64,000 nucleotides of DNA from Escherichia phage heid, in the sequence record MN850577.1; one strand, given 5' to 3'. The notes beneath the pieces are model-generated. The model worked only from the letters and a program-made list of their open reading frames with translations, was not told the DNA's origin and did no database searches. Positions 4,922 to 16,145 of this stretch are shown one piece after another; the stretch's first letter is position 1, and every line of letters starts with the position of its first letter. The position numbers were made by a program, and so were the translations under genes.

Positions 4922-6396
4922 TATTTATTTGCCTTATTTGCTGTGCTTGGGTCTTTCGCTGAAGGTGTCTTTGCAGTACCTTCTCCAGCGGTCTTATAAC
5001 CATCTCCTGAGCGGCTTTGGCTATTTGGAGAAAGCTTTTCAGATACTGGCTGAGACTCATCAGCAGGAGGAAGACCAATATGCTCTCTAAGCTTGTTAGA
5101 TAGCTCTTTGTCAACTTCCAAAGCACCTACTGCAACAGTCTTCTGAATATAAGAGCCAATTGCTTCAAGGTCTGGAGTTTCGATATCATCATATGTGATT
5201 TGTACATGTTCTTCATCATCCCACATATTAAGAGCATAAGTCTGTGCAACTAAATCACGGTTAATTACGTTCTTAATTTGCTTCAGCAGAATATCTACTG
5301 ACATTGCTAGTAAGCTTGTCTTAGAATCTGCAAGAGAGAATGAACCATATTTTGACTGACCCATAGCAAGAACATCTGACATAAATGCCATCATAATCTG
5401 CTTGGAATATCTGTCAATAATAGAACCTGTATCGTATGCTTTAGCACCCTGTCTAGAAACTAATGAGAACTCGAAAATATCCTCTTTAGTATCTGGGTCG
5501 ATATATCTAGGCCAGATTAAGCCTGCTCTGTCATTAGCAATCATATCGTTGACAACAGTTTTGCAGTATTGTACGAAAGCTTTCTTTTCAGGTTCTGCAT
5601 TTTCATCCAGATAATCTGGTGGTAAACCAATCTTTGGCATACCTACCAAGTCTCTTGAAACACCAACAGCTTCATACTCTTCAATCTGTACTTTATACTT
5701 CCACGGTACATAAGCATTAAGTAATGGTGAACGACCTTCTGGATTTCCATATTCATCGTCATACTTGAACAGCATGAATTTAGCTCGTGGAAGTTTTCTT
5801 GTTAGTGGTCTTTCTCCGAGATTAATTGCTCCAGCAATATGTGAAACATTTCTCAGATTCTGCCTAACACCTGTAACTTTTCTAAAGTCTTCGTCAAAAT
5901 ACCACTTATCAAGTGTTGATTGGTTTCTGATTGGTAATTTAGCCCATCCAATTAGACCATCATCAAATTTAGACTGGTACTTTCCTTTTTTACCCTGACG
6001 CTTCTTATAAACTTTCTCGTTAACACAGAACCCATAAGTGCAGAATGACATTACAGAATTAATAAAATCTGCCCAATCATGCTCCATGTCATCCATTAAA
6101 GAATTAAAGAAGTCTGCTCTTTCAAGCATTTTAGGGTCTTGCTCTTTTCCCTTTGGAGGTACGAATCTCCAGTTGACTTTTCTGACAAACATCTTAATAA
6201 TATTTACAGATGCTGCTACAGCAGGGTCACGCATCATTAATTGGAAAGTTTTAATACTTTCAGGGAACCTTAGTGCCTGACGAGGTTCTTCATAGATTCT
6301 TCCATTCTTAACCTTCAGACCCAAAGAACCTACTTCACCCATTCTAAATGGTGGTAAGCTTTCTTGTGTTTCTGTAATATCTGCCATTCTTCTCAC
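4921..6396 (-). CDS. portal protein (inferred)
   Basis: 491 aa ORF immediately downstream of the large terminase gene; size and position typical of portal proteins; acidic/basic C-terminal tail. Confidence 0.6.
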   Translation of the reverse strand: MRRMADITETQESLPPFRMGEVGSLGLKVKNGRIYEEPRQALRFPESIKTFQLMMRDPAVAASVNIIKMFVRKVNWRFVPPKGKEQDPKMLERADFFNSLMDDMEHDWADFINSVMSFCTYGFCVNEKVYKKRQGKKGKYQSKFDDGLIGWAKLPIRNQSTLDKWYFDEDFRKVTGVRQNLRNVSHIAGAINLGERPLTRKLPRAKFMLFKYDDEYGNPEGRSPLLNAYVPWKYKVQIEEYEAVGVSRDLVGMPKIGLPPDYLDENAEPEKKAFVQYCKTVVNDMIANDRAGLIWPRYIDPDTKEDIFEFSLVSRQGAKAYDTGSIIDRYSKQIMMAFMSDVLAMGQSKYGSFSLADSKTSLLAMSVDILLKQIKNVINRDLVAQTYALNMWDDEEHVQITYDDIETPDLEAIGSYIQKTVAVGALEVDKELSNKLREHIGLPPADESQPVSEKLSPNSQSRSGDGYKTAGEGTAKTPSAKDPSTANKANK

Positions 6397-6403
6397 CTAG
6401 CTA

Positions 6404-8020
6404 TCAACGTCTAAGCCCCTCATACGGGTTACCTCTCACTAAATCTGTGTGAGCACCCATTGATGGTGGCTTGAATAATTTAACTTCGTTAAGACTGTTG
6501 AAAGCATCACTGGTAGCATCCACTTGGTCATCTTTAGTTTTACCATCACCACAAAAGCCTTCAAGCTCTTGAAAGTAAGCTTCATTCCAACTACCTCTCA
6601 AGACTTTTACAAGTCCAGCTTCAGAAGCAGCAGAAAATCCCGCAAAGCGGGTAACTTTATCTTTATTTGTTGGTTTGGCTCTTGCTCGATAACCTTTCTC
6701 GGCAAGTTTCCTGATGAGGGATGTTGCGTAGGATTTACCAGCAGCGCCTGGGTCTTGAGGGATAAAAATACCAGTTCGCTTACCGTCACTTTCAGCAGTC
6801 AAATTAATTTGTGTTTCGACTCCAGAGGGTCTATCTCTAAATCTTACTACATCAATGATATAATAGCAACCGTCTTTTTTAGATTTACCCATCTTAACAC
6901 CTGCTGTCCAGTCTGGATTAGGGTTAACCTCAGATGGTAAAGTTGCTGCTAAGTCCCATGCTCTAACATCAAATACATCTTCTGGGAGTGAATCAACAAC
7001 TTCACACCATTGTCTTTGCCAATAGTTTGAACCTTCTGCACGAGCCTTCCAGTTACCGAAACGAAGTCTTGCAACGTTTACAGGAGTGTTGTTTTCCAAC
7101 TTACCACGGTACTTAGGCTCTAAGAAGTCAAGGATTGGGTTATCATCAATCGTACCAGAGATAAAGGTGTATGTTTGAGGAATCTCAAGAGGGAACATTT
7201 CAAGAATCTTGTCTCTCTCCCAATCAGAAACCATCACACCATCATTCATTACATACCAACGAATACGACCACATTTTTCAGGGTCTGGATAGCCTTCTTC
7301 ATCTAAGAATGGCTCTACCCAATCGTAAATAAAGTGGTCTCTGTCTGGGTTCATGGAAATCTTCATGTATGAATCACCTTCAGCACCAGAACGTAGACGG
7401 GTTTGTAGGTATGAAATCTGTGAAGCAGAGAAGTGTGTACCTTCGTCAAAGTAAATAGCTGAGTATTCAATACCCTGATGACCTTCAGCGTGCTTTTCAA
7501 GTTCTAGGTAGGTAAACTTGATAGTTGCCCCAGAAGGGAATGTGATGGTCATTTTCTGCTCGTGAGGAACCCCACCAAACTTACCAAATAGTTTCTTTGC
7601 AGCAGGCCATAAACCACCTTGTAGCTGTGTTGTATTTCGACGGAAATATACAGCATTATAGTTAGGGTCTTCAATAAACCTTAAAGAATCCATTAACAAT
7701 GCAGCAGTTTTACCAGCACCAGCAGCACCACCATAGAGAACCAAGTCAGCATTAGTATTTAAAAAGACCTCTTGAGAACCCGGCTGAGGGGCTACATAAT
7801 TCTTATCAGTCATCAATTTGAAGATAAGTCTAACTTGGTCTGGTGTGTATCTTAATAAAGTCAGAATTTGAGTTGGAAGGAATTTAGAGGGGTCTTTACC
7901 GAATGATTTGATAATTTCTTTTACTTCATCAGAAAGCCCCAACTCTCCAGCTAGGACTTTCCTAACATCTTCCACTCGCTTCTGCTTAACAGCATTTAAG
8001 TCCATTAAGCACCTCCGCAA
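6404..8020 (-). CDS. terminase large subunit
   Basis: 538 aa; N-terminal ATPase with P-loop (LYGGAAGAGKTAAL) and acidic Walker-B-like segment (AIYFDEGTH); C-terminal nuclease-sized domain; directly upstream of portal. Confidence 0.7.
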   Translation of the reverse strand: MRRCLMDLNAVKQKRVEDVRKVLAGELGLSDEVKEIIKSFGKDPSKFLPTQILTLLRYTPDQVRLIFKLMTDKNYVAPQPGSQEVFLNTNADLVLYGGAAGAGKTAALLMDSLRFIEDPNYNAVYFRRNTTQLQGGLWPAAKKLFGKFGGVPHEQKMTITFPSGATIKFTYLELEKHAEGHQGIEYSAIYFDEGTHFSASQISYLQTRLRSGAEGDSYMKISMNPDRDHFIYDWVEPFLDEEGYPDPEKCGRIRWYVMNDGVMVSDWERDKILEMFPLEIPQTYTFISGTIDDNPILDFLEPKYRGKLENNTPVNVARLRFGNWKARAEGSNYWQRQWCEVVDSLPEDVFDVRAWDLAATLPSEVNPNPDWTAGVKMGKSKKDGCYYIIDVVRFRDRPSGVETQINLTAESDGKRTGIFIPQDPGAAGKSYATSLIRKLAEKGYRARAKPTNKDKVTRFAGFSAASEAGLVKVLRGSWNEAYFQELEGFCGDGKTKDDQVDATSDAFNSLNEVKLFKPPSMGAHTDLVRGNPYEGLRR

Positions 8021-8026
8021 ATAGAA

Positions 8027-8227
8027 TTATTCAGAGTCTGTAGCAGTCTCTTCTTTCTTAACTTCGAACTTTGCATCAACAGCATCAAGAAGTGCATCCA
8101 TAGAGGCTTCTTTGATATCAATACCTGTTGCTACAGATAATCTATCTGCAATTGCCATGATAGTGTTCTGCATAAATTCTAGCTTTTTGTTAGCTTCATA
8201 AAGTTCTTTATAAACGGTCTCACTCAT
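8027..8227 (-). CDS. small coiled-coil protein (possible terminase small subunit or packaging accessory)
   Basis: 66 aa ORF directly upstream of large terminase; RBS GGAGAAA precedes the ATG. Confidence 0.3.
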   Translation of the reverse strand: MSETVYKELYEANKKLEFMQNTIMAIADRLSVATGIDIKEASMDALLDAVDAKFEVKKEETATDSE

Positions 8228-8255
8228 TATGTTTTCTCCAAATAATTAACCATGT

Positions 8256-8299
8256 TTCTCCTTAAAAAAGACGGCACAGAGACCGTCAAGGAGAAACCA
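8256..8299 (-). terminator. intrinsic terminator-like hairpin nested in a 10-bp inverted repeat, downstream of the tRNA cluster
   Basis: Minus strand reads GTTTCTCCTT-GACGG-TCTCTGTG-CCGTC-TTTTTT-AAGGAGAAAC: GC stem followed by T6, flanked by a perfect 10-bp outer inverted repeat. Confidence 0.5.
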
Positions 8300-8449
8300 C
8301 AATGTACGTCAGAGACATACTGTATAAGCCTTCTTATAAAGTATAACTCTGTAAAAAAGCCCTGTCTAAAAATACTCTTCGGTAGCGAAAGGAAGAATAC
8401 TTATAGCAGGGCATTATTATTATTTTAATTGAGAGAGAGTAAAATAACT

Positions 8450-8525
8450 TGGAGAATCCGAAGGGACTCGAACCCTTATAAACCTGTTTTGCAGACAGGC
8501 ACATATCCATTTCTGTCACGGATTC
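8450..8525 (-). tRNA. tRNA-Cys (anticodon GCA)
   Basis: Hand-folded cloverleaf: acceptor GAATCCG/CGGATTC, anticodon stem CCTGT/ACAGG, loop CTGCAAA, T-loop TTCGAGT, CCA encoded. Confidence 0.7.
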
Positions 8526-8529
8526 AAAT

Positions 8530-8623
8530 TGGAGGAAGATACCAGACTTGAACTGGTACACCGATTTCTCAGCTACTGGCAGTTTAGCAAACTGCTCCCT
8601 TACCTTTTAGGGTTAATCTTCCA
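8530..8623 (-). tRNA. tRNA-Ser (anticodon GCT), long variable arm
   Basis: Acceptor GGAAGAT/ATCTTCC, anticodon stem GCAGT/ACTGC, loop TTGCTAA, long variable arm, T-loop TTCAAGT. Confidence 0.65.
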
Positions 8624-9358
8624 TTATTTCTGTAATGCGCTCTTCATTTCTGGTGTTGCAATAGTGTCAATCACACCAGTTTTACAAGCATCGTCAAACC
8701 AGTCTGGTAAGATACCTGCTAAGAACCCATTGATATTCGTTTTAAGGTACTCTGCAATAAGGGCAGCTTCTTCTTCAATCATCTGCACAACTTCATCTGC
8801 ATAAGCTGTAATCTTTGAAATACCTTCATTAATCTTACTGACAGCTTGGTTAGCTAAATCAGAAACAGTATCAAGACCCTTATCAATAGCATCTTGTAAG
8901 TCACTTAACACACCATTAACACTATCTAGTGTACTGTTCATCATGTCAATAGCTTTTTGACCATACTCTGTAGCAACACCCATGATACCACTGAATGGTG
9001 TACAACCAACTTGTTCTCCTGCTGCACCCATAACATTGGAATACCCCTTTGCTACCTGCATACGTGATGAAAACTCATCAATAGATTTTTGACCGTAGTC
9101 TGTCAGAGTTTTAGTAGTTGCTGTAGTGCTTGTAAGGCTTGTTGTAAAGCTGTTTAGAAGGACTGTTGTAAGTCCAGCAGCAACAAGTTTCTCCTTCATT
9201 GTAGGGTCTGTTACAGAACTAATAGAGCTTACAAGTGATGTAGAGGCAGCTACGGTTCCACCGAGAACTGCTGCACCAGTAATAAGCGGGTTAGAGAACC
9301 CTTTACCAGTTTTTAAGAGATTAAAAATCTCCTTACCTTGTTCTGTCATCTCTTTCAT
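8624..9358 (-). CDS. hypothetical protein (Thr/Ser-rich central region)
   Basis: The 265 aa ORF call extends into tRNA-Phe; the ATG at 9358 (MKEMTEQGKEIF...) is the likely true start, giving a 244 aa product. Confidence 0.45.
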   Translation of the reverse strand: MKEMTEQGKEIFNLLKTGKGFSNPLITGAAVLGGTVAASTSLVSSISSVTDPTMKEKLVAAGLTTVLLNSFTTSLTSTTATTKTLTDYGQKSIDEFSSRMQVAKGYSNVMGAAGEQVGCTPFSGIMGVATEYGQKAIDMMNSTLDSVNGVLSDLQDAIDKGLDTVSDLANQAVSKINEGISKITAYADEVVQMIEEEAALIAEYLKTNINGFLAGILPDWFDDACKTGVIDTIATPEMKSALQK

Positions 9359-9374
9359 TAAGCACCTTTGAAAT

Positions 9375-9449
9375 TGGTAGTCCAGTGGGATTTGAACCCT
9401 CTTCTCATGTTTTTCAGACACGCGCTTTAACCATATAAGCTACTTGGAC
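9375..9449 (-). tRNA. tRNA-Phe (anticodon GAA)
   Basis: Acceptor GTCCAAG, D-stem GCTT/AAGC, anticodon stem CGTGT/ACATG, loop CTGAAAA, T-loop TTCAAAT, CCA encoded. Confidence 0.75.
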
Positions 9450-9457
9450 TATAAATT

Positions 9458-9532
9458 GGGGTGACCTACGGGATTTGAACCCGTATAGACCATGTTCACA
9501 GCATGGGTCATTACCGTTTATGATAAGGCCAC
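9458..9532 (-). tRNA. tRNA-His (anticodon GTG)
   Basis: Acceptor GTGGCCT/AGGTCAC, D-stem TCAT/ATGA, anticodon stem CCATG/CATGG, loop CTGTGAA. Confidence 0.7.
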
Positions 9533-9563
9533 ATTTAAGGACTCTCGCAAGAATCCTTAGAAG

Positions 9564-9639
9564 TGGCAGCGGCATAAGGATTTGAACCTTAATAGGACAG
9601 CTTCAGAGGCTGCTGCATTGCCAGTTATGCTATACCGCT
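9564..9639 (-). tRNA. tRNA-Gln (anticodon CTG)
   Basis: Acceptor AGCGGTA/TGCCGCT, anticodon stem GCAGC/GCTGT, loop CTCTGAA, T-loop TTCAAAT. Confidence 0.65.
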
Positions 9640-9644
9640 AAATT

Positions 9645-9723
9645 TGGTACTCCATATCGGATTCGAACCGATACATAACACAGATTTTAAGTCTGGCCTC
9701 TCTGCCAATTGGAGTAATGGAGC
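9645..9723 (-). tRNA. short tRNA with leucine-type anticodon TAA, no long variable arm, discriminator A
   Basis: Acceptor GCTCCAT/ATGGAGT, anticodon loop CTTAAAA on a 4-bp stem, T-loop TTCGAAT; about 79 nt. Confidence 0.5.
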
Positions 9724-9725
9724 AT

Positions 9726-9800
9726 TGGCGGGGGATGTTGGAATTGAACCAACTTCTTCGATTTCAAAGACCGAGGTTTTAACCTTGTAAACTAATCCCC
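9726..9800 (-). tRNA. tRNA-Gln (anticodon TTG), tentative
   Basis: Anticodon stem TCGGT/ATCGA, loop CTTTGAA, T-loop TTCAATT; acceptor pairing imperfect in my fold. Confidence 0.5.
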
Positions 9801-9809
9801 TTTAAATCT

Positions 9810-10367
9810 TTACTTTCTCAGTGGATGAATAAAGAATGCCAACATAACTCTTTCCCTTGAGAATGCTCTTTCTTCTGGGACAACACTTTTTAGTTTCCAT
9901 CCAATATAAATTCTCCAGTAAAATTGTTTACCAAAGATTTTAATTGATGGGATAAAAGCGAATAATCCCCAAGCATTACTGTTCCACATTAGGAGATAAC
10001 CTGTCTGATTATCTTCGGGGTCAGAACTTACGTTGATATTACCTTTCCACTTAGTAACATCTCTTACATCTCTTCCTAATACATGGTAAGAGAAGTTATA
10101 AGCTTTGTTTCTCCAGAGCCATCCGACTCTTTGCATGTAGACACCTAGTTTACCAATCCATCTAATATTAGCCCATCTTTTAACGTGACCTTCATCACCA
10201 TCAATTGGGTTGTCATATGTCTCCATCCATCTGAACCCGAAAGGTAAGTGCCCTTTCTTCTCACTGTAGAATGGAACTACAAAAGGTGCTAAGATAACTG
10301 CTAAGATTGCTGCAAATGGCTCTAACAAAGCTAAGAAAATCCATGAAGCATACTTCAAATATCTCAT
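9810..10367 (-). CDS. hypothetical membrane protein embedded in the tRNA cluster
   Basis: 185 aa ORF with hydrophobic N-terminus (IFLALLEPFAAILAVILAPFVVPF) and W/Y-rich body, flanked by tRNA genes. Confidence 0.5.
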   Translation of the reverse strand: MRYLKYASWIFLALLEPFAAILAVILAPFVVPFYSEKKGHLPFGFRWMETYDNPIDGDEGHVKRWANIRWIGKLGVYMQRVGWLWRNKAYNFSYHVLGRDVRDVTKWKGNINVSSDPEDNQTGYLLMWNSNAWGLFAFIPSIKIFGKQFYWRIYIGWKLKSVVPEERAFSRERVMLAFFIHPLRK

Positions 10368-10386
10368 CTAAATAGCCTCTTTAAAT

Positions 10387-10462
10387 TGGCGCAGGATAAG
10401 GGATTCGAACCCCTATTAACAGCTTCGTAGACTGTTGCTCTATCCATTTGAACTAATCCTGC
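10387..10462 (-). tRNA. tRNA-Arg (anticodon ACG)
   Basis: Acceptor GCAGGAT/ATCCTGC, D-stem GTTC/GAGC, anticodon stem ACAGT/GCTGT, loop CTACGAA, T-loop TCGAATC. Confidence 0.7.
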
Positions 10463-10467
10463 AAAAT

Positions 10468-10545
10468 TGGTGTTCCAAGACGGATTCGAACCGTCACTAA
10501 TACAAGGTTTGAGCTTGCATCCTCTGCCAATTGGGATACTGGAAC
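10468..10545 (-). tRNA. short tRNA with leucine-type anticodon CAA, no long variable arm, discriminator A
   Basis: Acceptor GTTCCAG/TTGGAAC, anticodon stem GCAAG/CTTGT, loop CTCAAAC, T-arm GACGG-TTCGAAT-CCGTC; about 78 nt. Confidence 0.5.
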
Positions 10546-10546
10546 A

Positions 10547-10621
10547 TGGTACTCACTAAAGGACTTGAACCTTTTTCTTCATCTTGTAAGGGTGATGTTT
10601 TACCATATAAACTAAGCGAGT
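10547..10621 (-). tRNA. tRNA-Val (anticodon TAC)
   Basis: Acceptor ACTCGCT/AGTGAGT, D-stem GTTT/AAAC, anticodon loop CTTACAA, T-arm AAAGG-TTCAAGT-CCTTT. Confidence 0.6.
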
Positions 10622-10715
10622 ATGAAAGAGGTCTGAAGTTGTGCCGCTAACTCAACTTCGTGGAATTTGTTACGGTCTTCAGTTGACTCAAAGCGGTCTT
10701 TCACTTGACCTCTGA
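10622..10715 (-). ncRNA. structured non-tRNA element between tRNA genes (candidate small RNA or processing element)
   Basis: About 90 nt with outer inverted repeat AGAGGTC...GACCTCT and inner 7-bp hairpin GAAGTTG...CAACTTC; carries the recurrent GGTCTTCAG motif; does not fold as a cloverleaf. Confidence 0.3.
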
Positions 10716-10717
10716 AT

Positions 10718-10793
10718 TGGTGCTCCCACAAGGACTCGAACCCTGATAAGTTGCTTACAAGGCAACCGTAATAACCAATTATACGATAGGAGC
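10718..10793 (-). tRNA. tRNA-Thr (anticodon TGT)
   Basis: Acceptor GCTCCTA/TGGGAGC, anticodon stem GTTGC/GCAAC, loop CTTGTAA, T-arm CAGGG-TTCGAGT-CCTTG. Confidence 0.7.
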
Positions 10794-10800
10794 ATTAATT

Positions 10801-10877
10801 TGGAGCATCCAGAGGGAATCGAACCCTCAACCTCAGTTTGGAAGACTGTAATTTTCCCGTTTAAACTATGGATGCAC
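10801..10877 (-). tRNA. tRNA-Gly (anticodon TCC)
   Basis: Anticodon stem ACAGT/ACTGA (one mismatch), loop CTTCCAA, T-loop TTCGATT, CCA encoded. Confidence 0.6.
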
Positions 10878-10881
10878 TAAT

Positions 10882-10957
10882 TGGTGGAGTCACTGAGAAT
10901 TGAACTCAGTTCCCAAGTTTGCAAAACTCGAATTTTAACCATATAAACTATGACCCC
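10882..10957 (-). tRNA. tRNA-Ala (anticodon TGC)
   Basis: Acceptor GGGGTCA with G3:U70 wobble (alanine identity element), D-stem GTTT/AAAT, anticodon stem CGAGT/ACTTG, loop TTTGCAA. Confidence 0.7.
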
Positions 10958-10963
10958 ATTGTT

Positions 10964-11039
10964 TGGTACAGGTGGAGGGAATTGAACCCATCGTCTTACT
11001 GATTAAGAGTCAGCCGCATAACCATTTTGCTACACCTGC
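10964..11039 (-). tRNA. tRNA-Lys (anticodon CTT), tentative
   Basis: Acceptor GCAGGTG/CACCTGT, anticodon stem GCTGA/TCAGT, loop CTCTTAA, T-loop TTCAATT. Confidence 0.55.
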
Positions 11040-11046
11040 ATTAATT

Positions 11047-11123
11047 TGGTACACCTAGAGAGATTCGAACTCACACTGAGCAGATTCTAAGTCTGCTGCC
11101 TCTACCAGTTGGGCTATAGGTGC
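11047..11123 (-). tRNA. short tRNA with leucine-type anticodon TAG, no long variable arm, discriminator A
   Basis: Clean 76-nt cloverleaf: acceptor GCACCTA/TAGGTGT, anticodon stem GCAGA/TCTGC, loop CTTAGAA, T-loop TTCGAAT. Confidence 0.6.
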
Positions 11124-11377
11124 ATTAAATCTTTTTAGAGAACTTCTAAGAACCTGAGCAACAAGGTTCCACAACAAGCGACTAATAACCTTAGAAGCCC
11201 TCTAAAAAGACCTAAATAGGTCTTTGCATAGTCTTGTTTAATCCGGTGACTAGAACCTTTGGAGAGCTTGATATTATCTCTTCTCCGTGACACCTACTAG
11301 GTGCTTTGACAGTGTACGACAATACACGAGGGATAAACCGACAATGCGAACAAGCATGGACGGAGTAAATCTTATTA
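11124..11377 (-). ncRNA. ORF-free about 250-nt spacer in tRNA cluster (candidate structured RNA, e.g. Y-RNA-like or intron remnant)
   Basis: No convincing ORF (the 64 aa call 11212..11406 overlaps tRNA-Ser); multiple local inverted repeats; lies between two tRNA genes. Confidence 0.25.
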
Positions 11378-11467
11378 GGCGGTAAGTAAAGGAGTCGAAC
11401 CCTCACCGTATCTCTACAGTGGCAACAGTTTTCAAGACTGTTTGGCTGCCATTAGCCGCTACCTACC
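11378..11467 (-). tRNA. tRNA-Ser (anticodon TGA), long variable arm
   Basis: Acceptor GGTAGGT/ACTTACC, anticodon stem ACAGT/ACTGT, loop CTTGAAA, long variable arm, T-loop TTCGACT; terminal CCA not fully encoded. Confidence 0.65.
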
Positions 11468-11480
11468 CCTAATAAGACTT

Positions 11481-11567
11481 TGGCATGGGACGGAGGAGTT
11501 GAACCCCTTTGAAACGGTTTTGGAGGCCGTTGCTCATGCCTTAGAGTCTTAACATCGTCCCATATTA
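11481..11567 (-). tRNA. atypical tRNA-like gene (possibly anticodon CCA, Trp); structure not canonical in my fold
   Basis: Acceptor ATGGGAC/GTCCCAT, T-loop TTCAACT, CCA encoded; candidate anticodon loop CTCCAAA, but the D region is over-long. Confidence 0.4.
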
Positions 11568-11700
11568 TAATTCGAAGCTTACCCTGTTATCTCAACACTG
11601 TCAAGCTTCTTCTCAGATTATTTACATGTTCTGGAAAACATGAGATACAGACCACCTCCCTACAGGAAGACCCGCTTAGGTCGTCTAAGTAATCTGCTAA

Positions 11701-12048
11701 CTAATACTTTGCATGTCTTACCCTATGGCAATTTGAACATAGCAAAACACATTTGTCAAGTTCATCTTTTAGTTCTTGAGAGAACTTAAGGCTTTTCCTA
11801 TGACCAATGTTAAAATCTTTATCTGAAGGATTCAAATGATGGAAGTCATACACTGCTGGATGATATTTCTTACCACAATCATGACAAACCCCACCTTTGT
11901 ACTCAATAGCTGAGAGTTTAAGTGCTCTTTGTCTTTCTATGGTTTGCTCATTAACACACTTTTTACAGTATGAATGAGTTCTCCTACCATCTTTCATGTA
12001 GAAATCATTTTCATCCTTGCTAAGTTTGCACCTAATACAAGTTTTCAT
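11701..12048 (-). CDS. HNH homing endonuclease inserted in the tRNA cluster
   Basis: Likely start MKTCIRC at 12048; paired zinc-binding motifs CIRC...CKKC and CHDCG...CSNCH plus HH...N typical of HNH nucleases; sits between tRNA genes. Confidence 0.6.
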   Translation of the reverse strand: MKTCIRCKLSKDENDFYMKDGRRTHSYCKKCVNEQTIERQRALKLSAIEYKGGVCHDCGKKYHPAVYDFHHLNPSDKDFNIGHRKSLKFSQELKDELDKCVLLCSNCHRVRHAKY

Positions 12049-12062
12049 GATTTCTCCAAAAT

Positions 12063-12144
12063 TGGTCGAGGCGGCAGGACTCGAACCCGCATACTCCACT
12101 TACTCGGTTAACGTCTGTTTAGAAGACAGATGAGATACGCCCCG
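12063..12144 (-). tRNA. tRNA-like gene, type undetermined (an anticodon-like loop reads TCT)
   Basis: Acceptor CGGGGCG/CGCCTCG, T-arm GCGGG-TTCGAGT-CCTGC, CCA encoded; the internal arms do not fold canonically by hand. Confidence 0.4.
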
Positions 12145-12392
12145 TAATTATCTTTAAAGACTCTCTTAGAAAGCCCTTAAAGATGCCCACCTTATTAATC
12201 ATACCGTGGGCGAGTACGCCAAATTCTTTGATGAGGGATTGGAAGACCTCACTGGTGTTTAGCCTATCAAGCTACTGCCAGAAAAACATTGTCGTTTGCA
12301 TTTATTTTAAATTTGCAAAATAGACGCTACGCAACGAAAACTAAGGTTACTATAAAGTAGTCACATCTCAATGTCAACAACTTTATTGAAAT
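12145..12392 (-). ncRNA. ORF-free about 250-nt spacer in tRNA cluster (candidate structured RNA)
   Basis: No ORF; AT-rich with embedded TTGACA-like boxes; between the HNH-adjacent tRNA and tRNA-Ile. Confidence 0.2.
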
Positions 12393-12468
12393 TGGTACTG
12401 GTAGGTGGAATCGAACCACCGATGTTCCCTTATCAGGGGAGTGTTATAACCTTCTTAACTATACCAGC
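12393..12468 (-). tRNA. tRNA-Ile (anticodon GAT)
   Basis: Acceptor GCTGGTA/TACCAGT, anticodon loop CTGATAA on stem TCCC/GGGA, T-arm GGTGG-TTCGATT-CCACC. Confidence 0.6.
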
Positions 12469-12469
12469 T

Positions 12470-12546
12470 TGGAGGTTCAGATGGGAATCGAACCCACATT
12501 CATAGGGCTTATGAGACCCTTGCATTACCTTATCTGCGACTGAACC
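12470..12546 (-). tRNA. tRNA-Met (anticodon CAT; could be elongator, initiator or Ile2)
   Basis: Acceptor GGTTCAG/CTGAACC, anticodon stem AGGGT/GCCCT, loop CTCATAA, T-loop TTCGATT. Confidence 0.6.
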
Positions 12547-12550
12547 ATAT

Positions 12551-12626
12551 TGGTAGAAGTGGAGGGATTCGAACCCATCGCCTGTCAGATTAAAAGTCTG
12601 CCGCATCACCATTCTGCTACACTTCC
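12551..12626 (-). tRNA. tRNA-Lys (anticodon TTT)
   Basis: Acceptor GGAAGTG/CACTTCT, anticodon loop CTTTTAA, T-loop TTCGAAT. Confidence 0.6.
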
Positions 12627-13056
12627 ATTAAATTATCTTTGTAGATAAGCTACCCAGACTTGCTTAAGGTCTGTAGCGATGTGCCTTTTTTGGGTTTAAA
12701 TCTAGAATTTACCCATTCACCCTTTGTGGTCGCATACTCACAAGTAAGCTTAATAACTTATCTACAAAGGTAATTACCAGACCGTTGTTTATCATCTTAA
12801 GTGCTACCATTACACCAACTCGACATCTGCCGAGTGAAGGAATCGAACCTTCGCCTTTTCTTTACCGGAGAAATAGATTGTTTAAGTTTTGCTGTAAACG
12901 GCCTTCTGTAAATTTGTTGAGCCAGACCAAGTTTTAAATTTTCAAAATTAAATTGGCTTGAAATTTCATACATTCTTGCTGTATTTGGTCTTCTGCTCCC
13001 TTAAAGAATACTCGTAAGAACTCTTTAAGGGAGGGGCTAAATAGCCCTCTCAAAAT
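12627..13056 (-). ncRNA. ORF-free spacer with tRNA-like fragment (T-arm GAAGG-TTCGATT-CCTTC near 12830) and repeated trailer motifs
   Basis: Contains a T-arm-like hairpin without a complementary acceptor partner, two copies of TTGCTGTA..GG(C/T)CTTCTG, and a GGGGCT/AGCCCT hairpin near 13030. Confidence 0.25.
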
Positions 13057-13133
13057 TGGCGGCTACGATGAGACTTGAACTCACATCATCTCCCGTGACA
13101 GGGGAGTATTTTCTCCAGTTAAACTACATAGCC
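13057..13133 (-). tRNA. tRNA-Asp (anticodon GTC)
   Basis: Acceptor GGCTATG/CGTAGCC, anticodon stem CTCCC/GGGAG, loop CTGTCAC, T-arm GTGAG-TTCAAGT-CTCAT. Confidence 0.7.
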
Positions 13134-13138
13134 TTTAT

Positions 13139-13226
13139 TGGTGTGCCGTGTAGGAGTCGAACCTACCGAGTCTCAATGACAAGGGATTTACAGTCCCCAC
13201 CGCTACCATCTACGGGATAACGACAC
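13139..13226 (-). tRNA. tRNA-Tyr (anticodon GTA), long variable arm
   Basis: Acceptor GTGTCGT/ACGGCAC, anticodon stem GGGGA/TCCCT, loop CTGTAAA, long variable arm, T-loop TTCGACT. Confidence 0.65.
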
Positions 13227-13234
13227 ATTTAATT

Positions 13235-13311
13235 TGGCGGTTAGTCAGGGATTCGAACCCTGTGCCATTCGCTTAACAGGCGACCGCACATACCTTATGT
13301 GCTTCCTAACC
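13235..13311 (-). tRNA. tRNA-Asn (anticodon GTT)
   Basis: Acceptor GGTTAGG/ACTAACC, anticodon loop CTGTTAA, T-arm CAGGG-TTCGAAT-CCCTG. Confidence 0.6.
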
Positions 13312-13389
13312 TTAATACATTGCCAGACCGTGTTTTTTCTGTTATCCGCAAAAAAGTATTTTGTTGCTGAATACGGTCTTCTGCAAAAT

Positions 13390-13465
13390 TGGAGGCGGGT
13401 GCAGGAGTCGAACCTGCCGATACCATGCTAATGAGACATGTGAGACGCCCTTTCTCTATACCCGC
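13390..13465 (-). tRNA. second tRNA with anticodon CAT (Met/fMet/Ile2)
   Basis: Acceptor GCGGGTA/TGCACCC, anticodon stem CATGT/GCATG, loop CTCATTA, T-loop TTCGACT. Confidence 0.6.
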
Positions 13466-13557
13466 AATTCTTAATGACCAGACCAAATCTCTTCTTTGTC
13501 CGATTTACCTTCAGATGAATAAGATTAAGTTTGCTGTAATTGGTCTTCTGTCAAAAC

Positions 13558-13635
13558 TGGCGTTCCAGAAGGGATTTGAACCCTCAGATATCCACTTTGA
13601 AAGAGTGGTGACTATACCATTTTGTCTACTGGAAC
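13558..13635 (-). tRNA. tRNA-Glu (anticodon TTC)
   Basis: Acceptor GTTCCAG/CTGGAAC, anticodon stem CCACT/AGTGG, loop CTTTCAA, T-loop TTCAAAT. Confidence 0.7.
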
Positions 13636-13642
13636 ATTAATT

Positions 13643-13718
13643 TGGTCTCTGTTGGAGGACTTGAACCTCCGGCCTTACCGCCCCAAACGGAACGCTCTAC
13701 CAATCTGAGCTAAACAGA
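13643..13718 (-). tRNA. tRNA-Pro (anticodon TGG)
   Basis: Acceptor CTCTGTT/AACAGAG, D-arm AGCTCAGATTGGTAGAGC, anticodon loop TTTGGGG, T-arm GGAGG-TTCAAGT-CCTCC. Confidence 0.65.
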
Positions 13719-13837
13719 GATAAACTTTTCAAACTCTATGTAACCACTTTAACATTATTTTTTAGTGATTGTCAAGAACTTTTTTAAAATATTTTTCAGT
13801 ATCTTAGAAAAGCTCTCATTTCGCTTCTATGTAGAAC

Positions 13838-13866
13838 ATATTAAAGGGTATTAAACACATTGTCAA
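13838..13866 (-). promoter_or_regulatory. sigma70-consensus promoter upstream of the tRNA cluster
   Basis: Minus strand reads TTGACA-ATGTGTTTAATACCCTT-TAATAT (17-nt spacer), about 120 nt upstream of the first tRNA. Confidence 0.55.
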
Positions 13867-13884
13867 TACCCTTTTTAAAACTTT

Positions 13885-15300
13885 TTACCAGATATAACGG
13901 TCAATCATTACTGCTTTGAGCATTACACTGATTGGGTCAAACTTCTCACCACCAAGCAGAGCTTTTAAAGTGGCTGGAGAGAACCCTGATACCATTGCTA
14001 CACCGTTATCCTTAACAGATACTTCGCAAGTACCATTACGGTTTGCTAAGTACCAGAATACCAGTTGTGGCATCTCATATCCAGCTTTTTTGTACTTACT
14101 CTGAATTGCTTCAAAGTTTGTACGACCGTTAGCTCCATCAACCTGATTAAACTCCATATCGGAGAAGATGATAAGCTTACTTGGCATATCTTTCTGAGTC
14201 AAGTTGTTTCTTTTACCTGTTTCAAGAATGCGGTCAAAAGCTGCTTGTAAGTTAGTTGAGCCATATTCAACGTGTCGCATCACCTGACGATGACGGTTTC
14301 GTAAATCACCACTCAGTTCGATGAAGTGAGGGTTTGTTGAATAAACCATTAACTCATTCTTAAAGCAACCTGTATTGCGTTCTGCTACATACAAGGCAAG
14401 TGATACACCAATATCCAGAGCAGTAATGGAGCCAAAATTCACCCAAGACATTGAACTTGATACATCAGACATACACAAGATGTTTTCACCTTCTGCCATC
14501 CAGTTTGGTAGTGCTTTCCACTGCTCATTAGCAACATCTGCATTACCATACTTGACAGATTTAATCACATCGTATGGGTAAACAGCACCAGCGTTAATCT
14601 TAGTCTCACCTTTTGATAAGGACTCGATGTAAGCTTTGTAACGCTCTCCATCTTTACGGTTAAACAGTTTTTGGTAACGTGCAGCAGCAAGTGAAGGAAT
14701 CTTACTGTAGTCAATCTTACCAAACTCATTAGCAGAGATTTTTTGCTCAACTGTATCAGATAGTGCAGACAACAGTGTGCGGTACTCTTTCTCACTCAAG
14801 TTGGCAAACTTGCAGAAACGTTTTACAAACTGCTTATGACGTGGTTTGACTCGTGGTAACCACTTAGCCGCCAAACCTGCTGTTGCAGGGTCTAGTAATG
14901 CTGCTTCTAAATGTTTGAAGGCATCTGTCTCGAAACGAGTACCTACGAAGATTTTGAAGTCATCAAAACGACCAAGTTCTGCAATCTTATCCATAATGCG
15001 AAGAACCTGCGTAGACTCTAAAACTTTGTCTTCAATTGCTTGAAGCAAAACAGTTCTGAAGGCTTTACGCTCACCCATACCTTCTCGTACATCTCGCATA
15101 TGAAGCAAAATACGAACTGCAACATCAACATCCTCACGCAAAGCTTTGTAGAACAGGTCTGGTAAGATTTCTACGTTGCTACGGCTTGAACCAGCAGCTT
15201 TGTAAAAGTTTACTAGAGCAGACATTGATGAAGTATGGTTTACAGCACCATTTTCAGTTCGACCTGCATGAAGGTGCGCATGTTTAAATAATTCGCTCAT
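13885..15300 (-). CDS. vWA-domain protein with MIDAS motif; possibly TROVE/Ro60-like or DUF2828-like
   Basis: 471 aa; helical N-terminal about 270 aa, then a DxSxS MIDAS motif (CMSDVSSSMS) and a C-terminal segment ending LIIFSDMEF, as in vWA folds; adjacent to the tRNA cluster. Confidence 0.45.
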   Translation of the reverse strand: MSELFKHAHLHAGRTENGAVNHTSSMSALVNFYKAAGSSRSNVEILPDLFYKALREDVDVAVRILLHMRDVREGMGERKAFRTVLLQAIEDKVLESTQVLRIMDKIAELGRFDDFKIFVGTRFETDAFKHLEAALLDPATAGLAAKWLPRVKPRHKQFVKRFCKFANLSEKEYRTLLSALSDTVEQKISANEFGKIDYSKIPSLAAARYQKLFNRKDGERYKAYIESLSKGETKINAGAVYPYDVIKSVKYGNADVANEQWKALPNWMAEGENILCMSDVSSSMSWVNFGSITALDIGVSLALYVAERNTGCFKNELMVYSTNPHFIELSGDLRNRHRQVMRHVEYGSTNLQAAFDRILETGKRNNLTQKDMPSKLIIFSDMEFNQVDGANGRTNFEAIQSKYKKAGYEMPQLVFWYLANRNGTCEVSVKDNGVAMVSGFSPATLKALLGGEKFDPISVMLKAVMIDRYIW

Positions 15301-15381
15301 ATTTTACTCTCTTCTCTCATTTGTTGTTTGATGTGACAGACTTTAGAGCAACTTTATAGAGTCTGTCAACACCTTTTAAAA

Positions 15382-15753
15382 TTATTTTTTGAGAGTCGCT
15401 ACAGCAGAAAACGTTGGTTTGTTATCTGTCTGGGTTTGACCACCATTATCAGGGGTTTTCTTAGTGTCTGCTGCAATCGCTTTCATCTCACCTGCTGAGT
15501 GGGTCATGATAGTTTTACCAGCTTCCATCATCGACTTCAGGTTTACATCGTCAGTCGTCAAACCGAACTCTGCAAGCTTAGCAGCATCCCTTGTAACAAT
15601 CGCCTCAAACAACTTTGCAGCAAACTCAGCAGAATTATCAATGGTCAGTTGAGCTTTTACGAGTGAACTTTTGTTACGAGAGCCTTTTGGTCTTCCAGAT
15701 GGGTTTCCAGACTGGCCTTTTTTAAACTGGCCTTTGTTTGTTCTGTTTTTCAT
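15382..15753 (-). CDS. hypothetical basic protein with N-terminal GNPSGRPKG motif
   Basis: 123 aa; N-terminus KGQFKKGQSGNPSGRPKGSRNK resembles a motif seen in small phage DNA-binding/packaging proteins (from memory, unverified). Confidence 0.4.
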   Translation of the reverse strand: MKNRTNKGQFKKGQSGNPSGRPKGSRNKSSLVKAQLTIDNSAEFAAKLFEAIVTRDAAKLAEFGLTTDDVNLKSMMEAGKTIMTHSAGEMKAIAADTKKTPDNGGQTQTDNKPTFSAVATLKK

Positions 15754-16145
15754 TGGTATGCCTCTTATAAGACCTCTTAAAAGGCTTTTAAGATAAAAGA
15801 TAGATATCCAGAAAGATATCTGTTTAAATAGCCTTTTTAGAGGAACCTTTTAAGTTATCTTCTAAGTATTTATAAGCCTACACCTTGTCAAGTACTTTGT
15901 CAACAACTTTTTTAACTTGCAATAGTTCTTGACTTGTTGTATGGATTACTGTACCATCTTACTTAAAGCTGTAGGTCTGCCTTGTTCTACAAAGGAGACT
16001 TAATGAGAAAATCAAATAAACCGAAGAAAGGTAAGAATACCAATCACTGTAAGGAATCAAAAAGGGTAGAATTAATCTACTATTCATCCTCTGAAATTGG
16101 TCTGTACCTGTTCTTTCAAAATTACAGAAGACAAGAGGATTATCT

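What the first reader, a model, noticed from the sequence alone, without database searches (positions are those of the whole stretch)
13885..15300. vWA/MIDAS protein next to the tRNA cluster: possible Ro60/TROVE-like RNA-binding module with a Y-RNA-like partner
The 471-aa protein has a helical N-terminal region followed by a DxSxS MIDAS motif (DVSSSMS) and a C-terminal vWA-like segment, the domain order of Ro60/Rsr (TROVE + vWA) and of DUF2828-type proteins. Bacterial and phage Rsr homologues are reported next to Y RNAs that contain tRNA-like modules (recalled from the literature, not checked). This gene sits beside a tRNA cluster containing several ORF-free structured spacers (10622-10715, 11124-11377, 12145-12392, 12627-13056).
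Basis: inference. Interest (0 to 1): 0.55.

Follow-up and report, generated by a model that had tools for sequence, protein, structure and literature searches.

The report
Ro60-like phage protein with partner RNAs
A Felix O1-type phage gene encodes a ring protein predicted to fold like the RNA-binding autoantigen Ro60, and just downstream, hidden between tRNA genes, lie four small RNAs of a widespread family that I could not find described anywhere and that looks like its counterpart of Y RNAs.

Summary

Rfam's Y RNA models find nothing. Reading the spacers revealed four paralogous elements on the gene's strand: E1 13473-13552, E2 13318-13385, E3 12917-12997 and E4 12772-12910. All share one "handle": a 7-bp stem AGRNUNN/NNANYCU, then NUW-CAGCAA, with a G after the 3' strand. 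E4 encloses a permuted tRNA-like domain (T arm, acceptor-like hairpin, D arm), the topology of bacterial YrlA.

The same handle flanks DUF2828 genes in diverse phages and bacterial assemblies. Within 500 nt of the gene there are 88 copies on the gene strand and 7 opposite. In an independent genome set, 68 of 80 loci carry it. Covariation is strong (94.6% paired against 39% in slid controls). No Rfam 15 family matches.

Verdict: a Ro60-like protein with candidate Y-like partner RNAs, a new variant of a known kind. RNA expression and protein binding are untested. gp130 alone counters ppl.

The parts
13885..15300 (-). Gene for a 471-aa Ro60-like protein: an N-terminal helical (TROVE-like) ring, Pfam DUF2828, followed by a vWA domain with a complete MIDAS motif, Pfam DUF7788. 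It is the orthologue of Bas63 gp130.
15340..15369 (-). Sigma-70-like promoter match (TTGACA-18-TAAAGT) upstream of the gene. This is a consensus match only.
13843..13874 (-). 12-bp hairpin followed by a T-rich tail, just after the stop codon (terminator-like). It overlaps one of two promoter-like sites (13866-13838 and 13775-13746) that could drive the tRNA/RNA cluster.
13473..13552 (-). E1, a short handle RNA between tRNA-Glu and tRNA-Met. The stem is AGACCAA/UUGGUCU (13546-13540 with 13486-13480), followed by UUACAGCAA, with a 3' G. An outer 4-bp stem UGAC/GUCA lies across an AGA/G internal loop.
   Evidence: R2 33.0 bits, E 5.3e-4
13318..13385 (-). E2, a short handle RNA between tRNA-Met and tRNA-Asn. 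The stem is AGACCGU/ACGGUCU (13379-13373 with 13331-13325), followed by AUUCAGCAA. The outer stem is UUGC/GCAA.
   Evidence: R2 34.6 bits, E 2.6e-4
12917..12997 (-). E3, a short handle RNA in the tRNA-Asp/tRNA-Lys spacer. The stem is AGACCAA/UUGGUCU (12991-12985 with 12930-12924), followed by AUACAGCAA. The outer stem is GAGC/GCUC.
   Evidence: R2 30.7 bits, E 1.5e-3
12772..12910 (-). E4, a long handle RNA with a permuted tRNA-like domain. The handle is AGGCCGU (12904-12898) with ACGGUCU (12785-12779), and G at 12778. UUACAGCAA is at 12897-12889. The T arm GAAGG-UUCGAUU-CCUUC is at 12852-12836, the acceptor-like hairpin at 12835-12818 and the D arm GUGU-AAUGGUA-GCAC at 12815-12801.
   Evidence: R1, trained without this sequence, gives 51.6 bits, E 3.6e-6, full length; covariation
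13390..13719 (-). tRNA-Pro, tRNA-Glu and tRNA-Met, which flank E1 and E2. Their processing (RNase P on the 5' side and 3' trimming) would release E1 and E2 as RNAs of about 80-90 nt. That step is inferred.
   Evidence: inference

Best explanation
The gene encodes a ring-shaped, Ro60-like RNA-binding protein of the DUF2828/DUF7788 lineage. The tRNA operon directly downstream carries four cognate small RNAs (E1-E4) that stand in relation to this protein as Y RNAs do to Ro60.

Each RNA has a conserved 'handle': a helix AGRNUNN/NNANYCU, an unpaired G after its 3' strand, and a single-stranded NUW-CAGCAA next to its 5' strand. I infer that this handle is the protein-binding site. The interior is a variable module. 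In E1-E3 it is a small A-rich loop with a hairpin. In E4 it is a permuted tRNA-like domain (T arm, acceptor-like hairpin, D arm), the topology of bacterial YrlA.

The RNAs are probably cut out of the tRNA-cluster transcript by the tRNA-processing machinery (inferred). By analogy with Ro60-Y RNA particles, and given the neighbourhoods seen (tRNA clusters; RtcB ligase and an HD phosphohydrolase in Listeria phages), the particle most likely acts on RNA, probably tRNA, during infection. It could act in surveillance or repair, or as a decoy or adaptor for host tRNA-acting enzymes or nucleases. The result would be help against host defences.

Shown by computation: the fold, the RNA family, its covariation, and its tight strand-specific linkage to the gene. 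Shown by others in experiments: the orthologue counters the ppl defence. Inferred: RNA expression, protein-RNA binding, and the molecular activity.

For: RNAs in the window. There are four paralogues with compensatory changes in the outer and inner stems. They are detected by models trained only on other genera. No comparable hit exists elsewhere in the 64 kb.

Family. A strict motif search finds 88 gene-strand copies against 0 opposite-strand copies in 44 of 80 viral loci. A generalised motif finds 88 against 7 within 500 nt of the gene, and 38 against 31 beyond 2.5 kb. All 65 R1 hits and 64 of 65 R2 hits lie on the gene strand. Positions the search did not select are conserved: G after the helix in 106 of 119, stem position 2 = G in 94 of 119, n2 = U in 97 of 119.

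Covariation in 21 tRNA-like members. 94.6% of cells are paired, against 61% in shuffles and 36-47% in slid controls. There are 150 double-change cells against 42, and 18 of 23 pairs covary.

Replication. In bacterial assemblies there are 155 gene-strand copies against 28 opposite, in 68 of 80 loci. The elements are also present next to the gene in LeBron, Aeh1, CP30A and Listeria List-36.

Topology. The canonical YrlA of ET08 is hit by the same model through its T, AS and D arms.

Function. Bas63 gp130, 97% identical with the same synteny, counters ppl. RtcB and an HD phosphohydrolase lie in the List-36 block.
Against: There is no direct evidence that the RNAs are expressed or stable, or that the protein binds them. 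gp130 alone, expressed from a plasmid or inserted in T7, restores T7 growth on ppl, so at least that activity needs no Bas63 RNA. No TROVE HMM match exists, and the Ro60 profile match reaches only E=0.4, so homology rests on a predicted structure. The handle motif differs from the GNCGAA/GGUCCGA motif of known Y RNAs. E1-E3 score modestly (E 3e-4 to 1.5e-3, with roughly calibrated E-values). About 10-20% of homologous loci show no element with my searches. The regex sets were selected for pairing, so their stem covariation is partly circular; the strand asymmetry, the unselected positions and the CM-based set are not.
Confidence: 0.75

Rival explanations
1. The protein is a stand-alone anti-defence protein that acts by protein-protein contacts, for example with its vWA/MIDAS face binding or titrating the ppl ATPase-PHP protein. 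On this view the neighbouring RNAs do something unrelated to it.
For: gp130 alone rescues T7 on ppl and even improves plating without the defence. vWA/MIDAS domains are classic protein-binding modules, as the Midasin, integrin and Ku80 hits show.
Against: The RNA family follows the gene across phages of Proteobacteria, Firmicutes, Actinobacteria and others. It is always on the gene's strand and mostly within 500 nt, including in loci with no tRNA genes at all. That linkage is hard to explain without a shared function. The helical ring domain matches an RNA-binding ring.
Confidence: 0.12
2. The elements are cis-acting signals rather than trans-acting partner RNAs. They could be processing or stability signals of the tRNA operon, or autoregulatory operators on the gene's own mRNA.
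For: In the window they sit between tRNAs. In many loci they lie in the 5' or 3' UTR region of the gene. An RNA-binding protein regulating its own mRNA would be unremarkable.
Against: They occur equally upstream and downstream (65 against 66) and often as 2-5 tandem copies. They carry elaborate conserved cargo: tRNA-like domains with T- and D-loop consensus, and 165-250-nt structured domains. They are present in loci without tRNAs. In the window, promoter-like sites and 2-3 tRNAs separate them from the gene.
Confidence: 0.08
3. It is simply a canonical Ro60 (TROVE) with a canonical YrlA/Y RNA, that is, an ordinary member of the known family.
For: The domain order, fold and RNA topology are the same.
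Against: The TROVE (PF05731) and vWA_Ro60 (PF25045) models match the ET08 Ro protein at E 5e-49 and 2e-54, but do not match this protein at E<=1. The handle lacks GNCGAA and has CAGCAA instead. The ET08 Ro locus has no CAGCAA-handle cluster. Rfam Y RNA models find nothing.
Confidence: 0.03
4. The elements are chance inverted repeats, tRNA pseudogenes or small mobile repeats with no RNA-level function.
For: E4 contains tRNA-derived arms. Phage tRNA clusters are known to decay and are invaded by homing endonucleases; an HNH gene sits at 11701-12099.
Against: Structure-preserving covariation occurs in four helices. Strand specificity is extreme. A conserved single-stranded motif and a conserved 3' G persist across phyla.
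Confidence: 0.02

Closest known systems
Ro60/Rsr with Y RNAs, especially bacterial and phage YrlA (Deinococcus, Salmonella, mycobacteriophage ET08/Bxz1 group, Thermus phage phiLo)
   Same: A ring of helical repeats plus a vWA/MIDAS domain. Partner RNA genes lie within a few kb on the same strand, often several per locus. The RNA architecture is a closing stem plus a variable module. One class has a permuted tRNA-like domain in the order T arm, acceptor-like hairpin, D arm. There is also a genomic link to RtcB-type RNA repair genes (rsr-yrlBA-rtcBA and the literature).
   Different: No sequence-level membership in TROVE or vWA_Ro60. The recognition motif is NUW-CAGCAA on the loop side of a 7-bp AG.../...CU helix followed by G, not GNCGAA/GGUCCGA in a bulged helix. 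The cargo repertoire is wider: empty, tRNA-like, whole tRNA, and 165-250-nt domains. In this phage the RNAs are embedded in a tRNA operon.
Bas63 (JohannRWettstein) gp130, PhageMaP preprint PMC11482910
   Same: It is the orthologue: 97% identical, 471 aa, in the same position ahead of tRNA-Pro. The authors already noted the structural similarity to Ro60 and the adjacency to tRNAs.
   Different: They proposed that some annotated tRNA genes might be Y RNAs. The candidates found here are not annotated tRNAs but inter-tRNA spacers, and in Bas63 they are partly covered by small opposite-strand CDS annotations, bas63_0137 and 0138. Their experiments address only the protein and the ppl defence.
Pfam DUF2828 (PF11443) / DUF7788 (PF25043); PHROG 850 'RNA-binding protein'; 'Ro-like RNA binding protein' of cluster L mycobacteriophages (LeBron gp53)
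   Same: Direct family membership. LeBron gp53 has the same two Pfam domains and three handle RNAs in the unannotated gap behind it.
   Different: These are annotation labels only. I found no RNA partner and no mechanism described for them.
tRNA (Rfam RF00005) and tRNA-like structures
   Same: E4 has the T-loop GGUUCGAUUCC and a D-loop with GG.
   Different: The order of the arms is permuted. There is no anticodon loop and no open acceptor end. The Rfam tRNA model scores only 22 bits on a partial match, below the gathering score of 29, and ARAGORN does not call it.

Membership tests
Ro60 / TROVE protein family (Pfam PF05731 + PF25045) | Significant match to the TROVE and vWA_Ro60 sequence profiles | tested here: not met
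   hmmscan at E<=1 returns only DUF7788 and DUF2828. The positive control, ET08 gp220, matches TROVE at 4.7e-49 and vWA_Ro60 at 2e-54. The family profile against PDB sequences gives Ro60 at E=0.42, around the MIDAS motif only.
Ro60 / TROVE protein family | Ring of alpha-helical repeats closed by a C-terminal vWA domain | tested here: met
Ro60 / TROVE protein family | MIDAS motif (DxSxS...T...D) in the vWA domain | tested here: met
   D279, S281, S283, T349 and D381 are invariant in 61 homologues.
Ro60 / TROVE protein family | Binds Y RNA or misfolded RNA | not testable with these tools
   Needs RIP/CLIP, EMSA or a structure. Only genomic linkage to an RNA family is shown.
Bacterial Y RNA of the YrlA type | Encoded within about 4 kb of the Ro gene on the same strand | tested here: met
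   E1-E4 lie 333-1113 nt downstream of the stop codon on the same strand. The criterion comes from Chen et al. 2014.
Bacterial Y RNA of the YrlA type | Closing stem enclosing a tRNA-like domain in the order (V) - T arm - acceptor-like stem-loop - D arm | tested here: met
   Met for E4 only. The RNAalifold structure comes from 6 other sequences. R1 hits E4 full length at 51.6 bits. All four helices are supported. The same model hits the canonical ET08 YrlA. E1-E3 lack this domain, like YrlB.
Bacterial Y RNA of the YrlA type | GNCGAA(N0-1)G / GGUCCGA-like Ro-binding motif near the 5' end | tested here: not met
   No such motif occurs in E1-E4. The conserved motif is NUW-CAGCAA. ET08 YrlA has GCCGAGAG and no CAGCAA.
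Bacterial Y RNA of the YrlA type | tRNA-type modifications, RNase P cleavage and CCA addition | not testable with these tools
   These are biochemical assays (abstract).
Rfam Y_RNA and all other Rfam 15 families | Covariance-model match | tested here: not met
   No Y RNA hit at E<=10 in 8000-16000. Only tRNA appears at gathering score in the window and in 10 diverse loci.
Pfam DUF2828 / DUF7788; PHROG 850 | Profile match above the curated cut-off | tested here: met
   DUF7788 scores 148.9 bits (cut-off 27.1) and DUF2828 99.4 bits (cut-off 29). phrog_850 matches at E 1.6e-183 over the full length.
Anti-defence protein against ppl (Bas63 gp130) | Orthology to the experimentally tested protein | tested here: met
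   459 of 471 residues identical with the same synteny. The phenotype itself is taken from the preprint and was not tested here.

The most novel reading that the evidence does not exclude
DUF2828/DUF7788 proteins and the CAGCAA-handle RNAs form a second, very large and so far unrecognised branch of Ro60-type ribonucleoproteins. This branch is present in more than 700 sequenced phages (Felix O1, KVP40-like, Aeh1, Campylobacter, Listeria P100-like, Staphylococcus, Enterococcus, Bacillus and cluster L mycobacteriophages) and in many bacterial assemblies. The handle would be a portable tag that loads interchangeable RNA modules onto the ring: tRNA mimics, whole tRNAs, and 165-250-nt structured domains. 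Phages would use the particles to protect or repair their translation apparatus, or to decoy RNA-targeting and other defences.
Probability: 0.6. Interest if true: 0.85.

Novelty: new variant of a known kind. Interest (0 to 1): 0.72.

Why it matters
Ro60-Y RNA particles are a classic but still poorly understood RNA-surveillance system. In bacteria and phages only the canonical TROVE family with YrlA-type RNAs has been studied.

This analysis gives the DUF2828 proteins concrete candidate partner RNAs. So far those proteins have carried only vague labels such as 'RNA-binding', 'vWFA' or 'Ro-like'. The candidates come with a defined recognition motif, a covarying structure and exact coordinates in genetically tractable phages (Felix O1, Bas63, LeBron, Listeria P100-like).

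That makes several questions directly testable:
- How does a ring protein recognise its RNAs?
- What are the tRNA-like modules for?
- Does the anti-ppl activity of gp130, and its general growth benefit, involve RNA?

It also shows that inter-tRNA spacers of phage tRNA clusters can encode functional RNAs, and that some are currently mis-annotated as small ORFs or odd tRNAs.

Tried and rejected
- Rfam Y RNA and all other Rfam models, at gathering score and at E<=10, gave only tRNAs and noise.
- Sequence searches against PDB with the single protein and with a 61-sequence profile gave no usable Ro60 hit.
These are 10622-10715 (a strong hairpin, z -3.3), 11124-11377 and 12145-12392.
- I considered that the repeated GGTCTGG/AGAAGACC arms pair across a tRNA, flanking it, rather than within a spacer. 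Both give the same 7 bp in this phage. Distant loci without tRNAs settle it in favour of the hairpin-type closing stem.
- A 12-sequence MAFFT alignment of the long elements was too poor to use. I replaced it with a 6-sequence one.
- My first signature filter was mis-indexed and returned nothing. It was corrected.
- The supplements of Chen 2014 and of the PhageMaP preprint are not held. I therefore took a canonical YrlA from ET08 instead, and could not see fitness data for the spurious Bas63 ORFs.
- The Annual Review on bacterial Ro60 is not held.
- Literature searches for DUF2828, YrlA+phage, Ro-like+phage+tRNA and Felixounavirus+Ro60 found no description of these RNAs.
Full report
**What the window is.** The 1416-nt ORF is 99.9% identical to Escherichia phage warpig. 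It has near-identical copies in about 250 Felix O1-type phages of Escherichia, Salmonella, Shigella and Citrobacter, so the window is a Felixounavirus. The annotations in those records are 'hypothetical', 'vWFA protein', 'RNA-binding protein' or 'DUF2828 family protein'.

**The observation.** The ORF 13885-15300 (-) is 471 aa. It is followed on the same strand by 25 tRNA genes, plus one extra tRNA-like sequence seen only by Rfam. Pfam gives DUF7788 (residues 274-455) and DUF2828 (best stretch 172-264). PHROGs gives phrog_850 'RNA-binding protein' over the full length. The MIDAS residues D279, S281, S283, T349 and D381 are invariant in 61 homologues of 40-89% identity.

**Is the protein Ro60-like?** Not by sequence:
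- There is no TROVE match at E<=1.
- The single sequence has no PDB hit.
- The family profile reaches Ro60 only at E=0.42, around the MIDAS motif.

By predicted structure, yes:
- The AlphaFold2 model built on the 61-sequence alignment is confident (pLDDT 90.6, pTM 0.90).
- The eleven best Foldseek matches in the PDB are all full-length Ro60 proteins: Xenopus, human, Thermus phage phiLo and Deinococcus Rsr. TM is up to 0.66 over about 500-560 columns. After them come only isolated vWA domains.
- A canonical phage Ro (ET08 gp220) matches Pfam TROVE and vWA_Ro60 strongly.

The present protein is therefore a separate sequence family with the same architecture.

**Prior knowledge of this gene.** Bas63 (MZ501086) gene bas63_0130 is 97% identical and sits in the same place ahead of tRNA-Pro. 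The PhageMaP preprint reports four things:
- Deleting it cripples Bas63 on hosts carrying the ppl defence.
- The protein alone, from a plasmid or inserted in T7, restores T7 on ppl.
- It resembles Ro60 structurally.
[quoted passage not shown]'

[quoted passage not shown] It is moderately toxic when over-expressed. None of these sources identifies an RNA partner.

**The RNAs in the window.** Rfam's Y RNA models find nothing, even at E<=10. Reading the minus strand showed repeated arms (AGAAGACC ... GGTCTGG) clustered in 12777-13549. Folding shows four elements with one architecture, read 5' to 3':
- an outer 4-bp stem;
- an internal loop, AGA on the 5' side and G on the 3' side;
- a 7-bp inner stem;
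- the sequence WUWCAGCAA immediately after the 5' strand of that stem.

The stems differ between copies by compensatory changes. The outer stems are UGAC/GUCA, UUGC/GCAA, GAGC/GCUC and UUAC/GUAA. The inner stems are AGACCAA/UUGGUCU, AGACCGU/ACGGUCU and AGGCCGU/ACGGUCU.

E1 and E2 fill the tRNA-Glu/tRNA-Met and tRNA-Met/tRNA-Asn spacers. E3 and E4 lie in the tRNA-Asp/tRNA-Lys spacer. The interior of E4 holds, in order, a T arm (GAAGG-UUCGAUU-CCUUC), a hairpin, and a D arm (GUGU-AAUGGUA-GCAC). This is the permuted order that defines the tRNA-like domain of bacterial YrlA.

**The family beyond this phage.** I fetched 80 viral loci that encode homologues, most at about 40% identity, oriented with the gene on the + strand.
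- A strict pattern finds 88 copies on the gene strand in 44 loci and none on the opposite strand. The pattern is A, then a perfect 6-bp stem, N3-CAGCAA, the complementary strand, then UG.
- Among all CAGCAA sites on the gene strand, 109 of 383 have a 7-bp partner, against about 34 expected. On the other strand it is 34 of 300 against about 29 expected.
- Loci that seemed empty carry variants with CUGCAA, CCGCAA or CGGCAA.
- With the generalised motif in 76 non-redundant loci, 88 gene-strand elements lie within 500 nt of the gene, against 7 on the other strand. Beyond 2.5 kb the two strands are alike, 38 and 31. Elements are equally often upstream and downstream, and often occur as 2-5 tandem copies.
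- Positions that the search did not constrain are conserved in 119 non-redundant elements. There is a G after the helix in 106, G at stem position 2 in 94, A at position 1 in 89, U at position 5 in 88, and U two bases before the CAGCAA in 97. The stretch before the 3' strand is A-rich.

**Structure support.**
- Six long elements from other loci, none from this phage, gave an RNAalifold consensus of handle + T arm + hairpin + D arm. Seventeen of 23 pairs show compensatory changes.
- The covariance model R1 built from them found 65 matches at E<=1 in 77 sources, all on the gene strand. They include window 12772-12910 (-) at 51.6 bits, E 3.6e-6, full length.
- On the 21 best matches, 94.6% of cells are paired, against 61% in column shuffles and 36-47% when partners are slid. 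There are 150 double-change cells against 42, and 18 of 23 pairs covary. All four helices are supported. That alignment is fitted to the model, which inflates pairing somewhat, but not to this degree.
- A second model, R2, was trained on 21 short elements from other genera. It finds E2, E1 and E3 in the window at E 2.6e-4, 5.3e-4 and 1.5e-3, and nothing else below E 0.1 except part of E4. In the loci, 64 of its 65 hits are on the gene strand.
- In the whole 64-kb window, only E1-E4 and one coding-region chance match carry the full signature.

**Breadth and replication.**
- tblastn finds the protein in 709 phage records. They include Felixounavirus, KVP40-like Vibrio phages, Aeromonas Aeh1, Campylobacter, Listeria P100-like, Staphylococcus, Enterococcus, Bacillus, cluster L mycobacteriophages and a Lak phage.
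- Handle RNAs lie beside the gene, on its strand, in each of the four cultured phages I checked. LeBron has three, in the unannotated gap after gp53. Listeria List-36 has three, just upstream. CP30A has two or three. Aeh1 has one, overlapping an odd 122-nt 'tRNA-Val'.
- An independent set of 80 loci from bacterial assemblies reproduces the pattern. There are 155 gene-strand elements within 1.5 kb in 68 loci, against 28 on the other strand. A G follows the stem in 119 of 155, against 8 of 28.
- No Rfam 15 family matches any element in the window or in ten diverse loci. Literature searches found no description.

**Comparison with canonical YrlA.** In ET08 the canonical Ro gene has its YrlA just upstream. 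R1 recognises it (29.8 bits) through the T, hairpin and D arms and a closing stem. In place of NUW-CAGCAA it has other sequence, and its Ro-binding motif is GCCGAGAG in an internal loop. The ET08 locus has no CAGCAA-handle cluster. The two RNA families therefore share topology, and possibly ancestry, but not the recognition motif. This parallels the two protein families.

**How it most likely works.**

Shown:
- a predicted Ro60-type fold;
- a conserved, covarying RNA family tightly and strand-specifically linked to the gene;
- a YrlA-like tRNA mimic among its members.

Shown by others: the orthologue counters ppl.

Inferred:
- The protein binds the handle.
- RNase P and 3' trimming of the flanking tRNAs release E1 and E2, and further cuts release E3 and E4.
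- The particle works on RNA, probably tRNA, during infection. I base this on the recurrent placement at the head of tRNA clusters, the RtcB ligase and HD phosphohydrolase in the List-36 block, and the RNA ligase and polynucleotide kinase in LeBron.

The main caveat is that gp130 alone suffices against ppl in T7. Either that activity is RNA-independent, or host RNAs can substitute.

**Context features.** A promoter-like site precedes the gene. A terminator-like hairpin and two promoter-like sites lie between the gene and tRNA-Pro. These are consensus matches only.

**Verdict.** However, the fold resemblance and the idea that Y RNAs might be present had already been proposed for the Bas63 orthologue. 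What appears new is the identification of the actual candidate RNAs, and of a large RNA family with a defined handle that accompanies DUF2828 proteins across phages and bacterial assemblies. I rate it a new variant of a known kind (Ro60-Y RNA particles), with interest 0.72.

Noticed in passing
window 12066-12144 (-): A tRNA-like sequence that Rfam scores at 33.4 bits but ARAGORN does not call. It has an anticodon loop CUUCUAA (UCU, Arg), no canonical D arm and an extra arm of about 23 nt. Bas63 has a normal tRNA-Arg(UCU) at the equivalent place. Its 3' end overlaps the mechanical N-terminal extension of the HNH endonuclease ORF 11701-12099, whose real start is probably the ATG giving MKTCIRCK.
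   Followed up: partly
L086 (Bas63 MZ501086) 5749-6023, equivalent to window about 12770-13000: The GenBank CDSs bas63_0137 and bas63_0138 (opposite strand, 36-50 aa) lie over RNA elements E3 and E4 and are probably spurious. Any knockout phenotypes reported for them would really be RNA phenotypes.
   Followed up: partly
L048 5734-5834; L080 8520-8616; L089 (Aeh1) 7730-7869: In some phages the CAGCAA handle encloses a complete, normally ordered tRNA or tRNA-like sequence, with the handle outside or instead of the acceptor stem. In Aeh1 this is annotated as a 122-nt 'tRNA-Val'.
   Followed up: partly
L046 5486-5898, L051 5479-5900, L058 1714-2142, L081 4111-4533, L073 5435-5674: Two larger RNA classes, about 165 nt and about 250 nt, lie in tandem just upstream of the gene and are closed by the same handle. 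For the 250-nt class, RNAalifold predicts 44 pairs, 17 of them with compensatory changes. No Rfam family matches them.
   Followed up: partly
L088 (Listeria phage List-36) 3114-7521: Three handle RNAs, the DUF2828 gene, an HD phosphohydrolase and an RtcB 'tRNA splicing ligase' form one same-strand block next to tRNAs. This is reminiscent of the Salmonella rsr-yrlBA-rtcBA RNA repair operon.
   Followed up: no
window 10622-10717 (-): The spacer between tRNA-Val and tRNA-Thr folds into a long hairpin (-26.9 kcal/mol, z -3.3, 0 of 200 shuffles as stable). It has no CAGCAA handle. Its function is unknown.
   Followed up: no
window 12627-12771 and 13001-13056 (-): The parts of the tRNA-Asp/tRNA-Lys spacer outside E3 and E4 contain further inverted repeats. 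One is UUUGUAGAUAAG...CUUAUCUACAAA, enclosing about 110 nt. Another is CCUUAAAGA...UCUUUAAGG. I read them from the sequence and did not analyse them.
   Followed up: no
window 15382-15753 (-): The gene upstream of the Ro60-like gene is a DUF5681 protein (E 7e-14) conserved in Felix O1-type phages. I saw no evident link to the RNA system.
   Followed up: no
L001 (warpig) against the window: The content of the cluster varies between close relatives. Warpig, 99.9% identical in the gene, lacks tRNA-Asp, tRNA-Tyr and tRNA-Asn and has only two handle RNAs (E1-like and E4-like). The window, Bas63 and L002-L006 have four.
   Followed up: partly
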